Below are positions 28,343-35,763 of a stretch of DNA of 35,763 nucleotides, piece by piece (positions within the stretch are counted from its first letter, which is position 1; each line of letters starts with the position of its first letter). Made by a program: the position numbers and the translations under genes. The DNA is from a virus. Under the pieces are notes generated by a model. It saw only the letters and a list, made by a program, of their open reading frames with translations. It had not been told where the DNA came from and made no database searches. Location: UHGV virus genome UHGV-0260253. One strand, 5' to 3'.

Positions 28343-29017
28343 ATGAAAACAATCCATGACATCCGGCGGTCTAACGCCAGAAAACTGAGAGATGGTGTTG
28401 GAGGGAATTCTTCCTTTGCCACTATGATTGATCGCGAGCCAACCCAGACCAGCAGGTTTATGGGAGATGGTGCTACTAAAAATATCGGTGACAGCATGGC
28501 ACGACACATCGAAAAATGTTTCGACCTGCCTGTCGGATGGCTCGATCAAGAACACCAGACAACGAACATCACAAAAAAACCTGATGTTTCAATCACTAAT
28601 AAACAAATCACATTAGTCCCTGTCATATCATGGGTACAGGCCGGAGCATGGAAAGAAGTTGGATATTCTGAGGTTGATTTGAGCACAGCAGAAACGTATC
28701 CCTGCCCTGTACCCTGTGGGGAAATGACTTATATCTTGCGGGTGATAGGTGATTCAATGATTGATGAGTACCGCCCGGGAGACATGATTTTTGTCGATCC
28801 TGAAGTACCTGCCTGCCACGGTGACGACGTTATTGCATTGATGCACGATACAGGTGAAACCACCTTCAAAAGGTTGATAGAAGATGGGACACAGCGTTAT
28901 CTCAAAGCGTTAAACCCAAACTGGCCTGAGCCTTACATTAAGATCAACGGTAATTGCTCTATAATTGGAACTGTGATTTTCTCAGGAAAACCAAGAAGAT
29001 ACAAAATCAAAGCCTAA
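28343..29017 (+). CDS. CI-like repressor (HTH plus S24 LexA-like peptidase domain)
   Basis: 224 aa; N-terminal HTH (ATKNIGDSMARHIEKCFDLPVGWLD), C-terminal autocleavage motifs VIGDSM (Ser) and TTFKRL (Lys). Confidence 0.85.
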   Translation: MKTIHDIRRSNARKLRDGVGGNSSFATMIDREPTQTSRFMGDGATKNIGDSMARHIEKCFDLPVGWLDQEHQTTNITKKPDVSITNKQITLVPVISWVQAGAWKEVGYSEVDLSTAETYPCPVPCGEMTYILRVIGDSMIDEYRPGDMIFVDPEVPACHGDDVIALMHDTGETTFKRLIEDGTQRYLKALNPNWPEPYIKINGNCSIIGTVIFSGKPRRYKIKA

Positions 29018-29030
29018 TCAATGTTTATGA

Positions 29031-29052
29031 ACCTGCTTCGGCAGGTTTTTTT
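29031..29052 (+). terminator. Rho-independent terminator after repressor gene
   Basis: ACCTGC-TTCG-GCAGGT hairpin followed by TTTTTTT. Confidence 0.6.
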
Positions 29053-29056
29053 ATAC

Positions 29057-29085
29057 TTGACAATGTACCTATGAGATACATAATG
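29057..29085 (+). promoter_or_regulatory. pL-like early promoter with embedded operator
   Basis: TTGACA-N17-ATAATG; spacer contains ATGTACCTATGAGATACAT (29063-29081) and a second ATGTACC at 29083-29089. Confidence 0.55.
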
Positions 29086-29188
29086 TACCCAAGAGAAACA
29101 ACAAACAGGCAGGACGCCCACGAAGTAGCCGCCGGTGGCGTATGAATGACCGGATGATTCGTTAAATACTATGTGTAAGAGAGCGCAA

Positions 29189-29392
29189 ATGAACCGTTAT
29201 TTCACATGCTCGTTTTGTGGCGCAAACGAGCTGCAGGCAAAAAAAATCATCGCCAAAGGCGGAAAAGATGAAGTTGCTATCTGCTCTGAGTGCGTAGTCT
29301 TGTGTGTCGGGGCATTAATCAATATCAGCACAACTATTCAGTTCACACCAAATGAGAATGCGCCTTTAGATGCGCGGAAATCTGGAGGTTAA
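29189..29392 (+). CDS. Small ClpX-type zinc-ribbon protein
   Basis: YFTCSFCGANELQAKKIIAKGGKDEVAICSECV: C-x2-C-x19-C-x2-C with CSFCG, as in the ClpX N-terminal zinc-binding domain (recalled). Start may be 29171 or 29189. Confidence 0.55.
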   Translation: MNRYFTCSFCGANELQAKKIIAKGGKDEVAICSECVVLCVGALINISTTIQFTPNENAPLDARKSGG

Positions 29393-29400
29393 AGAACAAA

Positions 29401-29676
29401 ATGAAAGTCCAGATTTTAAACAATAGTGGTGAAGTCGTTTGGTCATACGACATAGCCGCTCCTGTAGATCAGAGCGGCGATAGCTGGACCAATGGGAAAC
29501 ATCAGATTATGGCTGGAGTTGTGTTCTCTTTACGCCGTGCTTTAGAACAAGCTGAAGTCTTTCCATCAGACCCTGAATGGAAATGGCCTTTTTCTATTTG
29601 TCCAAATTCGGAGAGTACATTTCAGAAAATTGGTCAGAAAGTCGCACTCGAAGAGCATCAGCCAACTGTTTCCTGA
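29401..29676 (+). CDS. Hypothetical early protein (91 aa)
   Basis: Starts 9 nt after previous stop with GGAGG upstream; 3' end overlaps a convergent ORF. Confidence 0.4.
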   Translation: MKVQILNNSGEVVWSYDIAAPVDQSGDSWTNGKHQIMAGVVFSLRRALEQAEVFPSDPEWKWPFSICPNSESTFQKIGQKVALEEHQPTVS

Positions 29677-29839
29677 TTTTTTCAGGTAACTCGTCGGCAT
29701 CGCAGAAACAACAACGCTCGATCATGTTGAAAGCCGATTCGTAGAACTGTTTTTGCTGAGTGTCGCTGAGACAGGAAAAGAGCGACGTTACGATGATTTT
29801 ATTAATTGCATTATCAAGTTCTTTTTCATCAAAAGTCAT
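29594..29839 (-). CDS. Hypothetical protein (81 aa), antisense to early operon
   Basis: AAGGA SD 9 nt upstream of ATG; overlaps the 3' end of the plus-strand ORF by 83 nt. Confidence 0.35.
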   Translation of the reverse strand: MTFDEKELDNAINKIIVTSLFSCLSDTQQKQFYESAFNMIERCCFCDADELPEKIRKQLADALRVRLSDQFSEMYSPNLDK

Positions 29840-30279
29840 TTGATTTTCCTTTTATGTATACGGGCTTAAAAGGATACCACCGAGCCTGAAGTGGTGAAAA
29901 GACAGGCACATAACAGCTAAGTATTTTCAACCAGAGAGAATCCTTAGCGTTGTGGTGAATGCGCAGGCTGATGCGCGAAAGACATTGCAGCTATTGCAGA
30001 AAAGAGCTGTTCGGCGGGGCAATTAAATGCCCGTGAGAGTCTGAAATAACCGCATGCCGGAGATCAGCACCGGTCACCACAACAGCCACTGCTTTGGCGG
30101 TACCAGTTTGTACACTTGCTTCCGGCTGGTACCGCTCTTTTTACAAAACAGAGAAGAGCATCACCGGACGACGAGCTGATAACCCAATCCATCCGGGCGG
30201 CTGCCACCGCAGGTGTTCTTCTCTGTTTTGTGGAGAAACCAACCGACCTTGCAGGGTCGATATGATGAGGAGCAGCAAA

Positions 30280-30642
30280 ATGGCTAGCGAACGCAGTACT
30301 GATGTGCAGGCATTTATCGGGGAGCTGGACGGCGGCGTATTTGAAACCAAAATCGGCGCAGTTCTCAGTGAAGTCGCTTCCGGTGTGATGAACACGAAAA
30401 CCAAAGGTAAGGTCTCACTCAACCTGGAAATCGAACCATTTGATGAGAACCGTGTGAAAATCAAACACAAACTCTCATATGTTCGCCCGACTAACCGCGG
30501 GAAAATTTCCGAAGAAGACACCACCGAAACGCCGATGTATGTCAATCGCGGTGGTCGCCTGACTATTCTGCAGGAAGACCAGGGACAATTACTGACTCTT
30601 GCCGGTGAGCCTGACGGAAAACTACGCGCAGCAGGTCATTAA
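30280..30642 (+). CDS. Hypothetical protein (120 aa, possibly YfdP-like)
   Basis: Start chosen at ATG 30280 (MASERSTDVQ) with GAGGAG SD; the long upstream extension lacks an SD. Confidence 0.45.
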   Translation: MASERSTDVQAFIGELDGGVFETKIGAVLSEVASGVMNTKTKGKVSLNLEIEPFDENRVKIKHKLSYVRPTNRGKISEEDTTETPMYVNRGGRLTILQEDQGQLLTLAGEPDGKLRAAGH

Positions 30643-32251: not shown

Positions 32252-32497
32252 ATGCTTCAAATGCTGACACTTGAGGAATGGGCTACGGAAAAATACAGAA
32301 GTAATCCTCCAAGTGTGTCCACATTGCGTCGTTATGCTAAGCAGAATTTATTTTGTCCACCGGCAATGAAACAAGGTCGACTATGGCGAGTGCGTGAGGA
32401 CGCAGAGTTAGTTGGGGAATTAGTTACTCCTGTCATCAAGAAAAGTGATTCTATTATTCTACAAAGGATTTTAAGTAATGGCAGCCAGACCACGTAA
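32252..32497 (+). CDS. xis: Excisionase, lambda Xis-like
   Basis: MLTLEEWATEKYRSNPPSVSTLRRYAKQNLFCPPAMKQGRLW parallels lambda Xis MYLTLQEWNARQRRPRSLETVRRWVRECRIFPPPVKDGREY (recalled); overlaps int start by 20 nt. Confidence 0.75.
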   Translation: MLQMLTLEEWATEKYRSNPPSVSTLRRYAKQNLFCPPAMKQGRLWRVREDAELVGELVTPVIKKSDSIILQRILSNGSQTT

Positions 32498-33608
32498 AAA
32501 TAATGTTTCAGTCCCGAACTTATATCCGCTCTATAGCAGAAAAGTAAATAAAGTCTATTGGCGATATAAGCATCCAGTGACCGGGAAGTTTCATTCTTTG
32601 GGCACAAACGAAGCTGAAGCCATTGCTATTGCCACTGAGGCCAATACACGCCTGGCTGAGCAAAGAACCCGGCAGATTCTAGCTATCAGTGACAGGATCG
32701 CAACCAGCAAAGGAAAAGCAATCACAACGTCAACCTGGTTAGATCGCTATCAAGCAATCCAGGATGACAGACTGAAAAGTGGCGATATAAAGCTCAACAC
32801 CTATAAACAGAAAGCTAAACCAGTATCCTTGCTCAGGGAACGAGCAGGAATGAAGTTAATTTCATCCGTTGATGTAAGGGATATAGCACAATTGCTTGAC
32901 GAGTATATCACTGCTGGGCAACCGAGGATGGCGCAAGTAGTCCGCTCCGTTCTAATTGATGTATTCAAGGAGGCACAACACTATGGGGAGGTCCCTCCTG
33001 GCTATAATCCAGCATTAGCGACCAAACAGCCCAGAAGAAAAATTACCCGACAACGGTTAAGCCTTGAAGAATGGCAAAAAATCTTTGATATCGCAGATGC
33101 CAGTCATCGTTATATGGGGAATGCCATGCTGTTAGCACTGGTTACCGGTCAGAGGTTAGGTGATATCTCGCGTATGAAATTTAGCGATATTTGGGATGAT
33201 CATCTCCATGTCATCCAGGAAAAAACTGGGAGCAAAATCGCCATCCCGCTTTCCCTGCGTCTCAATGCGATTAACTGGAGTTTGCGAGATGTAGTAGCCC
33301 GCTGCCGTGACTATGCTGTCAGTCCATATCTTGTACATTTTTTTCGCACAACCTCACAGGCTGAACGTGGCGCACAGGTAAAAGCTAATACACTAACGAT
33401 GAACTTTAGCAAGGCGCGTGATCTGGCAAAAATTGATTGGGGTACTGGAACTCCAGCAACTTTTCATGAACAAAGATCTTTATCTGAACGCCTTTACAAG
33501 GAGCAAGGGATAGATACCAGAAAACTGCTGGGCCATAAAACCCAGCAGCAAACCGATCGTTACCATGATGACAGGGGAAAAGATTGGAATAAGTTAGAAT
33601 TAAAATGA
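32478..33608 (+). CDS. int: Tyrosine integrase, lambda family
   Basis: 376 aa, AAGGA SD; C-terminal catalytic region HFFRTT...HEQRSLSERLY...LLGHKT...RY. Confidence 0.9.
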   Translation: MAARPRKNNVSVPNLYPLYSRKVNKVYWRYKHPVTGKFHSLGTNEAEAIAIATEANTRLAEQRTRQILAISDRIATSKGKAITTSTWLDRYQAIQDDRLKSGDIKLNTYKQKAKPVSLLRERAGMKLISSVDVRDIAQLLDEYITAGQPRMAQVVRSVLIDVFKEAQHYGEVPPGYNPALATKQPRRKITRQRLSLEEWQKIFDIADASHRYMGNAMLLALVTGQRLGDISRMKFSDIWDDHLHVIQEKTGSKIAIPLSLRLNAINWSLRDVVARCRDYAVSPYLVHFFRTTSQAERGAQVKANTLTMNFSKARDLAKIDWGTGTPATFHEQRSLSERLYKEQGIDTRKLLGHKTQQQTDRYHDDRGKDWNKLELK

Positions 33609-33626
33609 GGGGGAAAACTCCCCCTC
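33607..33626 (+). terminator. Bidirectional hairpin between convergent int and cargo gene
   Basis: GAGGGGG-AAAACT-CCCCCTC followed by ACTTTTT; overlaps the int stop codon. Confidence 0.55.
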
Positions 33627-33631
33627 ACTTT

Positions 33632-34198
33632 TTAACACACTTCAGAGCCACTTAACTGGAAAGTTATAGGAGATATTTTACCTCTAAACCTATAAGGTTT
33701 GGATAGTAGTAACTTTTCCATAACCCCATTATTAATTACTTTTTTTGCATACTGTTCATCAGTAAGTTCTTTCCCTAAAAAAGAGAATCTATTACATACA
33801 ATCCATATATTAAAATCAGTAATTTTCACATCTTCTTTTAAAAAACTATCAGAAAAACGCTCTTGCATGAAATCGTCTACTGCTGTCTTATACTTGCATC
33901 GTATATTTTCTTCATCTAATCGGGAAACTTTTGCAACATTCTTCAACTCAATTATGTAAAGTGCAAAACGATTATCCCCTCGCTTAATAACTAAAATATT
34001 ATCTGGTGAAGGAGGTGTAATAGGCAACCGAAGCGAATTATAATATGAATCCACAGAAAGATTGATTATTTTTTGGCAATCTAGTTTTCCGTTATCCTGA
34101 TAAAAATCAGCATCCAATTTGACAAACACATTATTTTCTTCGACTTCATCACGAAGTAAAGCAGTTAACTCAGGAGTTGCAAGAATTTTTTCGATCAT
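33632..34198 (-). CDS. Hypothetical protein with PD-(D/E)xK-like motif (candidate nuclease effector)
   Basis: 188 aa, AT-rich, no histidines; PD...(17 aa)...ELK pattern (SPDNILVIKRGDNRFALYIIELK); ATGA-coupled to the upstream ATPase gene. Confidence 0.45.
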   Translation of the reverse strand: MIEKILATPELTALLRDEVEENNVFVKLDADFYQDNGKLDCQKIINLSVDSYYNSLRLPITPPSPDNILVIKRGDNRFALYIIELKNVAKVSRLDEENIRCKYKTAVDDFMQERFSDSFLKEDVKITDFNIWIVCNRFSFLGKELTDEQYAKKVINNGVMEKLLLSKPYRFRGKISPITFQLSGSEVC

Positions 34199-35625
34199 TC
34201 TTTGCCATCCTCGTCTTCCATTTCGTCATTTATAGTTTGAAAGATATCCATCTTTTCATCAAATAACTCATTCGTAGCTGGGCCAAAGTTATTATCCTCA
34301 ATCCCTAACTCATCAATTTCTAGCGGTAAAGCAACACTTCCTGTTCCTGTCTTTTTAAATACTACTGATGATACATTATTTTTATGGATACCTGTCATGC
34401 AGTTCTCAGCAGTGTTCTTAATCACAAGATTATTAACCTTGTTGAATATAAAATTACTATGAGATGTCACAATAAGTTTAACATTTGCATCTATTAATTT
34501 TGCAAATATCTCTGTTAATTTTATTTGAATTTCCGGATGTAAATGAGCTTCTGGTTCTTCAATCATAATTAATGGTTTAGGTTCTGGACGTTTGAATTCC
34601 CTAGCCCCGCTTCCGATGCGTCTCATACCCGATTCGTCAGCTTTAGTAAGCACGTATCTTAAATATGATACAATAGGTGCCAACTCTGAAACCATCGAAG
34701 ATGTTGATGACAACTCTAATCTAAGATTTGTATTATTAGGATAAAAAAGAAGCTGTTTTGTCTGTGGATTAAATTCCACTCTACCATCTAATATTTTATC
34801 TTCTATTTCTTTGGCAAGGATATTTAATTTCTTATCTTCATAGTTCCGTTTAACAACTCTAATATCAGACAACTTAATGAAGTAATCACTAACAGGCTCA
34901 GATATACTTGGCAATTCAATTTTTTTTGATAAGAAAGATCTATTCTTAGATAACTCTGCAATTATTTGACCAAAAGCACTCAGAGCTTGATACAAACCCG
35001 AACGACTTGCTGGCAAATAATGGACACTCTTAAGAGTCGGTGTTAAAATTGTATTAACCATAACCATGAATGTTCTTTGAACAAAGAAGTGATTGTATTC
35101 GCCAATCAATCTGTTTATAGCTTCTTCATAATTATCGTTATTTTCCCTATAATAAATACTGGATGAATTTGCGCCATGGTGAAAAGTTCTATTTCTTTTT
35201 GATTTTTTTATATAAAATTGTTGAGCGTGCTTGATATCACTTACACATAATTTGTTATTTTCGAGTTTTATGTCTACAGATAAATCATTACCAACCAGAC
35301 TGATCTTAGCTGGTTCATTATTAAACTGATTTTGTAGATTGTTAAGTGATACAAATGTATTTGAAAAAGAATTAGTTAACTCTGCTAGTAAATAACTCGC
35401 AAACATATTTTTTATGTCTTCATTCACTAACATTGAAACATTCATATCTGTTTCATCACTTTCTATAAAACCTGCAAATTCTTTCCTCCTTATATCTGAA
35501 GTCATTTCAATATGATCGAAATCAAGATAATAATCGAAGGAATTGATTATATATGAGCGACGTTGTTTTAGTTGCAGTAAAGATTTAACAATTAAATAAA
35601 TTGCGGTTATTGCATATGATTTACC
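34195..35625 (-). pseudogene. ABC-type (OLD/AAA_15-21-like) ATPase, N-terminus disrupted by IS1
   Basis: Frame open upstream of the annotated ATG to the IS1 junction; native residues GKSYAITAIYL (Walker A remnant) abut IS1. Downstream motifs: VHYLPASRS, Walker B LIMIEEPEAHLHP, H-loop LIVTSHS. Confidence 0.65.
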
Positions 35626-35763
35626 GGTGATGCTGCCAACTTACTGATTTAGTGTATGATGGTGTTTTTGAGGTGCTCCAGTGGCTTCTGTTTCTATCAG
35701 CTGTCCCTCCTGTTCAGCTACTGACGGGGTGGTGCGTAACGGCAAAAGCACCGCCGGACATCA
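35626..35763 (+). mobile_element. IS1, insA-proximal end (partial, continues beyond window)
   Basis: GGTGATGCTGCCAACTTACTGATTTAGTGTATGATGGTGTTTTTGAGGTGCTCCAGTGGCTTCTGTTTCTATCAGC... matches the IS1 terminal inverted repeat and insA 5' region as recalled. Confidence 0.85.
35681..35763 (+). CDS. insA: IS1 InsA, N-terminal fragment (truncated by window end)
   Basis: GTG start then [26 protein letters not shown], the InsA zinc-finger N-terminus. Confidence 0.7.

What the first reader, a model, noticed from the sequence alone, without database searches (positions are those of the whole stretch)
33632..35625. AT-rich two-gene operon beside int: ABC-type ATPase plus small PD-(D/E)xK-like protein, a candidate uncharacterised defence module
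Just past the integrase, convergent to it, sits a clearly foreign (low-GC) operon of two translationally coupled genes. The upstream gene has the signatures of OLD/AAA_15-21-type ABC ATPases (P-loop remnant GKS, YLPASR, Walker B LIMIEEPEAHLHP, H-loop TSHS) but no TOPRIM or HNH domain. The 188-aa partner has no histidines and a PD-x17-ELK pattern, compatible with a restriction-endonuclease-fold nuclease. ATPase-plus-nuclease pairs in this hotspot are typical of abortive-infection or defence systems (Septu, PARIS, AbiL-like), but this partner does not match the HNH or TOPRIM effectors of those systems, so it may be a new pairing.
Basis: partly seen in the sequence, partly recalled or inferred. 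Interest (0 to 1): 0.8.

Follow-up and report, generated by a model that had tools for sequence, protein, structure and literature searches.

The report
IS1-broken ATPase–nuclease prophage defence pair
Next to the integrase of an e14-like prophage sits a two-gene cassette, an OLD-type ABC ATPase plus a small restriction-endonuclease-fold protein, that looks like an unnamed relative of known ATPase–nuclease anti-phage systems such as WonAB, but this copy has been knocked out by an IS1 insertion.

Summary
Window 33632-34198 (-) encodes a 188-aa protein. Window 34195-35625 (-) encodes codons 32-507 of an AAA_15/AAA_21 ABC ATPase. The two genes overlap by ATGA, have about 32% GC, and are convergent with intE. 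An IS1 end (35626-35763) cuts the ATPase inside its Walker A motif. Eight complete E. coli genomes carry the intact 507-aa gene between intE and icd.

[quoted passage not shown] Neither protein meets sequence membership of those systems.

Best reading: an untested, unnamed variant of ATPase-gated nuclease abortive defence, inactive in this window. Interest is moderate.

The parts
33632..34198 (-). Gene for the 188-aa small partner, a predicted PD-(D/E)xK nuclease. Putative active-site codons: D50 34049-34051, D66 34001-34003, E84-L-K86 33941-33949, K102 33893-33895.
34195..35625 (-). 5'-truncated gene for an OLD-type ABC ATPase (codons 32-507 of a 507-aa protein). R239 of YLPASRS at 35002-35004; Walker B E387/E388 at 34555-34560; H-loop H420 at 34459-34461. 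It lacks the first 31 codons, including most of Walker A, and its native promoter.
   Evidence: In-frame translation. Intact homologue L001 8636-10159. Pfam AAA_15/AAA_21. Motif conservation.
34195..34198 (-). ATGA overlap of the ATPase stop and the nuclease start (translational coupling).
   Evidence: Sequence. Overlaps of 4-14 nt in homologous pairs from other taxa.
33606..33627 (.). Bidirectional hairpin terminator shared by intE and the operon.
   Evidence: Terminator scan: 9-bp stem with 6 G-C pairs and T-runs on both strands.
35626..35763 (+). Left end of an IS1 element (inverted repeat and start of insA) inserted into the Walker A codons of the ATPase gene. The window ends inside it.
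   Evidence: Megablast hits annotated as IS1 family transposase, 93-97% identity. Junction compared with the intact gene.
32478..33608 (+). intE-type tyrosine integrase of the e14-like prophage (context: defines the int-icd cargo slot).
   Evidence: ORF. RefSeq annotation of the 99.8% identical copy.

Best explanation
This is prophage cargo: a two-gene anti-phage module carried in the integrase-to-attachment-site slot of an e14-like prophage.

In intact copies, a 507-aa OLD-type ABC ATPase is co-translated with a 188-aa PD-(D/E)xK nuclease. Inferred mechanism, by analogy with WonAB, Septu and PARIS:
- The ATPase dimerises or oligomerises and holds the nuclease.
- It senses a phage-derived cue.
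- Through ATP binding or hydrolysis it licenses the nuclease.
- The nuclease then cuts nucleic acid and aborts the infection. The target is plausibly tRNA or other RNA, giving translation arrest; DNA is the alternative.

In this window the module is dead. IS1 has removed the promoter, the first 31 codons and the Walker A glycine-rich loop of the ATPase. The rest of the operon is still 100% identical to intact copies, so the insertion is recent.

Shown: gene structure, IS1 lesion, fold class, conserved catalytic residues, strict gene pairing, and location in variable or defence-rich slots.
Inferred: defence function, complex formation, ATP gating and nuclease target.
For: Gene anatomy and IS1 junction.

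Intact pair: present in 8 of 5426 complete E. coli genomes, at 99.9-100% identity. In the one copy examined in detail it lies between intE and icd.

The same slot holds known or likely defence cargo in other strains:
- lit in K-12
- an AAA ATPase + HNH pair
- an AAA ATPase + Dam methylase

Nuclease:
- AF2 model pLDDT 85.7.
- D50, E84 and K102 are invariant, D66 is kept in 52/53, and position 86 is always K or R.
- D66 sits just before strand 67-72 and E84-x-K86 at the end of strand 77-86 of one hairpin.

ATPase:
- All ABC motifs are invariant in 47 homologues.
- The nearest solved folds are Septu and retron PtuA, Foldseek E 2e-11.

Co-occurrence:
- 5/5 informative loci found through the nuclease have the ATPase directly upstream, in Aeromonas, a Deltaproteobacterium, a Spirochaete, Clostridiales and Chitinophagales.
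- 4/4 loci found through the ATPase have the nuclease downstream.

Neighbours include Pycsar-like, CcdAB, TacAT, AbiEi, RelB/YafQ and HicB genes, and lambdoid prophage moron sites.

Precedent: WonAB needs both genes, and WonB toxicity needs active WonA (PMC12137116).
Against: - No experiment exists for this family, so defence is inferred from context and analogy only.
- 20 of 53 homologues have R instead of K in the ExK motif, which is unusual for a catalytic lysine. K102 may substitute, or some members may be inactive.
- I could not inspect model coordinates, so clustering of the residues is deduced from secondary-structure register, not measured.
- No hit in the phage or plasmid collections.
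Confidence: 0.65

Rival explanations
1. PARIS-like or toxin-antitoxin logic. The nuclease is a constitutively active toxin that the ATPase sequesters, and a phage trigger releases it. The ATPase acts as antitoxin rather than activator.
For: PARIS works this way with an ABC ATPase and a nuclease (cited in PMC12065111). Pfam labels AAA_21 as a 'putative AbiEii toxin, type IV TA' domain. TA modules are neighbours in several loci.
Against: In this window the ATPase is destroyed while the nuclease ORF is untouched and 100% identical to intact copies. That would be lethal if the ATPase were an essential antitoxin and the nuclease were still expressed. The argument is weakened because IS1 also removes the native promoter. 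In WonAB, the closest analogue, the nuclease is non-toxic without the active ATPase (PMC12137116).
Confidence: 0.15
2. Direct, non-abortive DNA restriction. The ATPase-nuclease complex recognises and cuts incoming phage DNA (modified DNA or particular structures), as McrBC, Gabija and OLD do, without killing the host.
Against: Characterised OLD-type ATPase + nuclease systems increasingly turn out to target tRNA or translation, according to abstracts listed: PARIS, Septu (PMC13096335) and OLD (bioRxiv 10.64898/2026.07.10.737580). WonAB arrests translation without degrading DNA. No DNA-recognition domain is evident in the 188-aa protein.
Confidence: 0.15
3. Not defence. The pair is a prophage- or host-serving DNA repair, recombination or element-maintenance module (RecF/SbcC-like ATPase with a nuclease).
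For: Weak NCBIfam similarities to RecF and RecN at the N-terminal P-loop. Rad50 appears among the structural matches of the ATPase.
Against: - Those matches are generic ABC-head similarities (E 0.01; Foldseek 1e-8, below PtuA).
- The distribution is sporadic: 8 of 5426 complete E. coli genomes.
- The pair is AT-rich and sits in hypervariable cargo slots beside TA and defence genes.
- It is repeatedly hit by IS elements.
This is the signature of accessory defence cargo rather than of a housekeeping function.
Confidence: 0.05

Closest known systems
WonAB of the Vibrio cholerae WASA-1 prophage, and the wider 'OLD-ABC ATPase + novel REase' operons (Krishnan et al. 2020, as used in PMC12137116)
   Same: - Prophage-borne two-gene operon: an OLD-type ABC ATPase followed by a small stand-alone PD-(D/E)xK protein.
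- Shared ATPase motif flavour: Y[IL]PA[GS]RS and IEEPEAHL[HF]P...T[ST]HS.
- A weak profile-profile alignment puts D50/D66/E84-x-K86/K102 in register with WonB D44/D55/E70-x-K72/Q82. hhalign P = 1.3e-3; score 27.3 against at most 22.2 in 30 block shuffles.
   Different: - The nuclease is 188 aa against about 145-170 aa and lacks the WonB 'VDGC...CD...ELKGSD' signature. HMM-to-sequence scores are below 10 bits both ways.
- The ATPase is 507 aa with different inserts and a TSSMVSE segment where WonA has SSGQQE.
- My family HMM scores WonA-type ATPases at only 40-57 bits, mostly over Walker B and the H-loop. BLASTP gives 25% identity over 237 aa.
- The motif YYNSL was absent from the held part of the authors' hit tables, which are truncated.
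PD-T4-4 (Vassallo et al. 2022) and HEC-02 (Payne et al. 2024)
   Same: ABC ATPase plus PD-(D/E)xK-class nuclease, two genes, validated anti-phage activity in E. coli. PD-T4-4_A is among the best PADLOC hits of the ATPase (1e-23, 82 bits).
   Different: No PD-T4-4_B hit for any of the 53 nuclease homologues. HEC-02B (NERD) was hit by 1 of 53 at E 0.0087, which is chance level. The ATPase hits are partial and no better than the generic AAA_15 model.
Septu (PtuAB) and retron type I-A PtuAB
   Same: Nearest solved structures to the ATPase model: Foldseek E 2e-11 to 1e-9, probability 1.00. An ABC ATPase oligomer controls a small nuclease. A Septu-like AAA + HNH pair occupies the same intE-icd slot in another E. 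coli strain.
   Different: The effector is PD-(D/E)xK, not HNH. Only 12-14% identity and TM 0.35-0.49 to PtuA. PADLOC PtuA hits are about 42-44 bits.
PARIS (AriAB), Gabija (GajA), OLD, Menshen (NsnABC)
   Same: OLD-type ABC ATPase sensor coupled to a nuclease, often on prophages or satellites next to int. PADLOC 'AriA' 7e-27, NsnB 1e-22, GajA about 1e-17.
   Different: - No TOPRIM/DUF4435 partner or fusion.
- No NsnA (ParB/DUF262) gene, and the small protein is not NsnC.
- The two 'AriA' models have the lengths of Pfam AAA_15 (373 against 374) and AAA_21 (304), so those hits are generic.
Lit of E. coli K-12 e14
   Same: Occupies the identical intE-icd cargo slot of the same prophage family. 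It is an abortive-infection effector that shuts down translation (function from established knowledge).
   Different: Unrelated protein: a single zinc metalloprotease that cleaves EF-Tu.

Membership tests
PD-(D/E)xK (restriction endonuclease-like) superfamily: small protein | Core alpha-beta-beta-beta-alpha-beta fold | tested here: met
PD-(D/E)xK (restriction endonuclease-like) superfamily: small protein | Conserved acidic residue at the start of the second core strand and (D/E)xK in the third | tested here: met
   D66 in 52/53, E84 in 53/53, position 86 K in 33 and R in 20 of 53. Also invariant D50 and K102, and E/D21. Spatial clustering was inferred from the hairpin register only; coordinates were not inspected.
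OLD-type ABC ATPase (Pfam AAA_15/AAA_21) | Walker A, Q-loop-like arginine motif, signature-like motif, Walker B, H-loop | tested here: met
   Intact homologues have GxNxxGKS (GQNSIGKS in the E. coli copy), LPASRSGLY, STSSMVSE, IEEPEAHLHP and HSN, invariant or nearly so in 47 sequences. Pfam AAA_15 at 45 bits and AAA_21 at 44 bits are above their cut-offs. In this window Walker A is cut by IS1.
[quoted passage not shown] | Two-gene operon: ABC ATPase followed by a small PD-(D/E)xK protein | tested here: met
[quoted passage not shown] | Nuclease recognisable as WonB / novel REase by sequence profile | tested here: not met
   HMM built from 11 published members scores the 53 homologues below 10 bits, and the reverse is also true. 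hhalign probability is 18%. The authors' own HMMs were not available.
[quoted passage not shown] | ATPase recognisable as WonA-type over its full length | tested here: inconclusive
   40-57 bits, mostly Walker B and H-loop. 25% identity over 237 aa, E 2e-9. Published sequences were truncated at 400 residues in the held supplement.
[quoted passage not shown] | Both genes required for phage protection; nuclease toxicity depends on the active ATPase | not testable with these tools
   Experimental feature (PMC12137116).
PD-T4-4 | Match to both PD-T4-4_A and PD-T4-4_B models | tested here: not met
   A: 1e-23, partial. B: no hit for the window protein or any of 53 homologues.
PARIS | AriB: DUF4435/TOPRIM partner | tested here: not met
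   The partner has no TOPRIM and no AriB hit. It has a PD-(D/E)xK fold.
Septu | PtuB: HNH nuclease partner | tested here: not met
   No HNH. The partner has no histidine at all and no PtuB hit.
Menshen | Three genes, including NsnA (ParB-DUF262) and NsnC (inPIN + nuclease) | tested here: not met
   Only two genes lie between intE and icd. No NsnC hit. The NsnB hit of 79 bits is partial.
Gabija / class 1-2 OLD | TOPRIM domain fused to the ATPase | tested here: not met
   The ATPase ends after the ABC head and a C-terminal helix.

The most novel reading that the evidence does not exclude
The pair is a distinct, still unnamed anti-phage system. A new, highly divergent PD-(D/E)xK family (D50/D66/E84-x-K/R86/K102) is licensed by its own clade of OLD-type ABC ATPase to cleave RNA (tRNA or rRNA) rather than DNA. 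That would add a fourth effector fold to the emerging rule that OLD-type ATPase sensors abort infection by attacking translation.
Probability: 0.3. Interest if true: 0.6.

Novelty: new variant of a known kind. Interest (0 to 1): 0.45.

Why it matters
ABC-ATPase sensors paired with interchangeable nucleases are becoming one of the largest classes of bacterial immunity, including OLD, Gabija, PARIS, Septu, Menshen, WonAB, PD-T4-4 and HEC-02.

This pair adds a conserved, cross-phylum ATPase clade and a nuclease family that no current profile library recognises. Defence-annotation tools therefore miss it.

It sits in the e14 slot that holds lit in K-12, so it is easy to test in E. coli. It offers a compact 188-aa effector for asking how these ATPases license different nuclease folds and what they cut.

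The IS1-killed copy here, and an IS3-hit copy elsewhere, fit the idea that such systems carry a cost. The design itself is already known, so the gain is incremental rather than conceptual.

Tried and rejected
Profile and sequence searches that found nothing:
- PADLOC, Pfam, NCBIfam and PHROGs scans of the small protein and of 53 homologues gave nothing, or single chance-level hits: GajB, Cmr3, DndF, HEC-02B, TnsA_N at E 0.001-0.01.
- PDB sequence-profile search with the nuclease family: no hit at E <= 1.
- Foldseek of the nuclease model against PDB: no significant hit.
- tblastn of the nuclease against the phage and plasmid collections: no match.
- Rfam scan of the whole window: no RNA family.

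Resources that were unavailable:
- The AFDB50 library was not available.
- Krishnan et al. 2020 could not be read, so its 'novel REase' definition was taken second-hand from PMC12137116.

Literature:
- Searches for the RefSeq accessions and for e14/icd defence hotspots found nothing relevant.

Systems considered and rejected as identities: Menshen (no NsnA or NsnC), PARIS (no TOPRIM partner), Septu (no HNH), Gabija/OLD (no fused TOPRIM), PD-T4-4 and HEC-02 (partner models do not match). AbiL was considered from memory only: the partner matched no PADLOC model, and I did not check that PADLOC holds an AbiL partner model.

The PADLOC 'AriA' top hit was discounted because the model has the length of Pfam AAA_15.

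Full report
**1. The observation**

- On the minus strand, a 188-aa ORF runs from 34198 to 33632.
- A longer frame is open from 35625 to 34195.
- The upstream stop and the downstream start overlap as ATGA (34195-34198).
- GC falls to 0.27-0.35 over 33600-35600, against 0.42-0.53 in the DNA to the left.
- The integrase gene (32478-33608, +) is convergent. A strong bidirectional hairpin terminator (33606-33627) lies between the two stop codons.
- The upstream protein has only AAA_15 and AAA_21 Pfam matches, with no TOPRIM or HNH.
- The small protein has no histidine and carries P65-D66, 17 residues, then E84-L-K86.

**2. The IS1 lesion**

From 35626 to the window end the sequence is the inverted-repeat end and first codons of insA of an IS1 element. 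It matches thousands of annotated IS1 copies at 93-97% identity.

Eight of 5426 complete E. coli genomes match window 33560-35625 at 99.9-100% identity and continue without IS1. In strain S19-651 the ATPase gene is 507 codons and begins MIIILKNFGPIREFQIDLEKDFHLLIGQNSIGKS. In the window, the IS1 end abuts the GGT-AAA-TCA (G32-K33-S34) codons.

This copy has therefore lost its promoter, 31 codons and the glycine-rich part of Walker A. An ORF finder calls only a 436-aa remnant from an internal ATG at 35505. Nothing else has decayed, so the insertion is recent.

**3. Genomic setting**

In the intact strains the order is yfdP-yfdQ-yfdR-xisE-intE, then the nuclease and ATPase genes (leftward), then icd. 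This is the cargo slot between the integrase and the attachment site of e14-like prophages.

Related intE genes occur in 503 genomes. The slot content varies between strains:
- lit + ymfE + ymfD in K-12
- an AAA ATPase + HNH endonuclease (Septu-like)
- an AAA ATPase + Dam methylase
- a 1040-aa hypothetical protein
- an 858-aa AAA ATPase + a ComEC/Rec2-like protein

It behaves as a defence or moron hotspot.

**4. The small protein**

It matches no model in Pfam, PADLOC-DB 2.0, NCBIfam 20 or PHROGs. Fifty-two diverse homologues do not either, beyond single chance-level hits.

A word-indexed search found only 14 clusters, in Enterobacter, Pectobacterium, Phytobacter, Klebsiella and Aeromonas. An exhaustive profile search found 258 representatives at 50% identity, nearly all stand-alone proteins of 165-205 aa.

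Conservation across 53 of them:

| Position | Conservation |
|---|---|
| D50, E84, K102 | invariant |
| D66 | 52/53 |
| E/D21 | always acidic |
| Position 86 | K in 33, R in 20 |

An AlphaFold2 model built on the close homologues is confident (pLDDT 85.7, pTM 0.84). D50 lies on helix 49-55. D66 lies immediately before strand 67-72. E84-x-K86 lies at the end of the antiparallel strand 77-86. K102 lies on the following helix. This is the canonical PD-(D/E)xK arrangement.

The fold assignment is sound, but the family is very divergent. I could not inspect coordinates, so residue clustering is inferred from strand register.

**5. The ATPase**

Intact homologues keep every ABC motif:
- GxNxxGKS (K33; GQNSIGKS in the E. 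coli copy)
- LPASRSGLY (R239)
- a signature-like STSSMVSE
- IEEPEAHLHP (E387/E388)
- HSN (H420)
- an invariant G472-x-x-D475-x-N477-F478 just before a long C-terminal helix

More than 1650 clusters match at E <= 1e-20.

PADLOC's best hits are 'AriA' (7e-27), PD-T4-4_A (1e-23), NsnB (1e-22), PDC-M47A and HEC-02A, then many GajA and PtuA models. All are far below orthologue-level scores. The 'AriA' model has the length of Pfam AAA_15, so that hit is generic.

By sequence, the nearest solved chains are a retron I-A ATPase (1e-7), retron PtuA, a class 1 OLD nuclease and AriA. An AlphaFold2 model of the 72%-identical Enterobacter orthologue (pLDDT 82.6) is closest to Septu and retron PtuA. That match has Foldseek E 2e-11, TM 0.35-0.49 and 12-14% identity.

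**6. Is the pair real?**

Yes.
- Starting from the nuclease, six loci from one-genome-per-species contigs were found. All five with upstream DNA encode a homologous ATPase directly upstream on the same strand: Aeromonas, a Deltaproteobacterium, a Spirochaete, a Clostridiales MAG and a Chitinophagales MAG. Two of the five are frameshifted.
- Pectobacterium has the pair too, in an island with Pycsar-like, CcdAB, TacAT, AAA+/S8 peptidase and AbiEi genes.
- Starting from the ATPase, four of four sampled loci have a family member downstream, at 156-214 bits to my profile. These are Serratia lambdoid prophages (between the replication genes and Q), a Vibrio parahaemolyticus prophage (right after int), Desulfolutivibrio (beside RelB/YafQ and HicB), and a metagenomic contig.
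- In the metagenomic contig an IS3-family element has inserted between the two genes and truncated the nuclease.
- Stop/start overlaps of 4-14 nt are the rule.

**7. Comparison with what is known**

The design is not new.
- Adams et al. (PMC12137116) showed that WonAB of the V. cholerae WASA-1 prophage is an OLD-type ABC ATPase plus a PD-(D/E)xK variant.
- Both WonAB genes and their catalytic residues are needed for protection.
- WonB is toxic only with active WonA.
- Activation arrests translation without degrading DNA.
- The authors place WonAB within the 'OLD-ABC ATPase + novel REase' operons of Krishnan et al. 2020 and note its similarity to PD-T4-4.
- HEC-02 pairs an ABC ATPase with a NERD nuclease.

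I took WonB and novel-REase sequences from the WonAB paper's supplement and tested membership.
- HMM-to-sequence scores are below 10 bits in both directions.
- Profile-profile alignment is weak: probability 18%, P = 1.3e-3, score 27.3 against at most 22.2 in 30 block-shuffled controls. It is nevertheless in register, aligning D50/D66/E84-x-K86/K102 with WonB D44/D55/E70-x-K72/Q82.
- WonA-type ATPases score 40-57 bits against my ATPase profile, mainly over Walker B and the H-loop.

The pair therefore works like WonAB and is perhaps a remote cousin. It fails the sequence-membership tests for WonAB and PD-T4-4. It lacks the partners that define PARIS, Septu, Menshen and Gabija.

RefSeq calls the two proteins 'AAA family ATPase' and 'hypothetical protein'. 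No paper in the library mentions their accessions.

**8. Mechanism**

My best account (confidence 0.65) is an ATPase-gated nuclease that aborts infection:
- The ATPase oligomer binds the co-translated nuclease.
- It detects a phage cue.
- It licenses cleavage through ATP binding or hydrolysis.

The target is unknown. Recent work on PARIS, Septu, OLD and WonAB points to tRNA or translation (abstracts listed), so RNA is at least as likely as DNA.

The state of this window gives a small hint. An intact nuclease gene survives with a dead ATPase gene. That fits an activator-type ATPase better than an antitoxin-type one, although loss of the promoter could explain it equally well.

Rivals are PARIS-like sequestration (0.15), direct DNA restriction (0.15) and a non-defence repair role (0.05).

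**9. Verdict**

The finding is real and correctly read. It is an unnamed, untested variant of a known kind of defence system, present here as an IS1-inactivated copy. It is worth a cloning experiment using the intact E. coli allele, but it is not conceptually surprising.

Noticed in passing
window 35626-35763: The IS1 end is only 93-97% identical to IS1 copies in complete E. coli genomes. No complete E. coli genome in the collection has this IS1/ATPase junction, so the window comes from a strain or species not represented there, with a divergent IS1 variant.
   Followed up: partly
L020 6001-9397: In a metagenomic homologue of the pair, an IS3-family element (HTH_Tnp_1 + rve) sits between the ATPase gene and a 5'-truncated nuclease gene. 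This is a second, independent IS inactivation of this module.
   Followed up: partly
L011, L013, L015 (intE-icd slot of other E. coli strains): The same slot carries unidentified cargo in other strains: a 569-aa AAA ATPase + Dam-type methylase, a 1040-aa hypothetical protein with a 156-aa neighbour, and an 858-aa AAA ATPase + a ComEC/Rec2-like protein. These are possible further defence candidates.
   Followed up: no
window 29017-30280: An ORF-poor stretch of about 1.2 kb lies between the cI-like repressor gene (28343-29017) and yfdP, with GC rising to 0.53 near 30000-30400. The same gap is unannotated in the RefSeq homologue. No Rfam family matches.
   Followed up: no
L018 1-8042: A Vibrio parahaemolyticus prophage has the same yfdP / DUF2303 (yfdQ-like) ... 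integrase layout as this window. It carries a homologous ATPase-nuclease pair right after int but on the same strand as int, suggesting the cassette moves between int-adjacent slots of related prophage backbones.
   Followed up: no
L009 1-12058: The Pectobacterium copy lies in a dense island with CcdAB, a PycTM (Pycsar-like) gene, an AAA+ ATPase + S8 peptidase pair, TacAT and AbiEi. Two small XRE-type HTH genes sit directly upstream of the pair and could be its regulators.
   Followed up: no
small-protein family, position 86 (window 33941-33943): The lysine of the ExK motif is arginine in 20 of 53 homologues, while K102 on the next helix is invariant. The catalytic lysine may have migrated, as in some restriction enzymes.
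   Followed up: no
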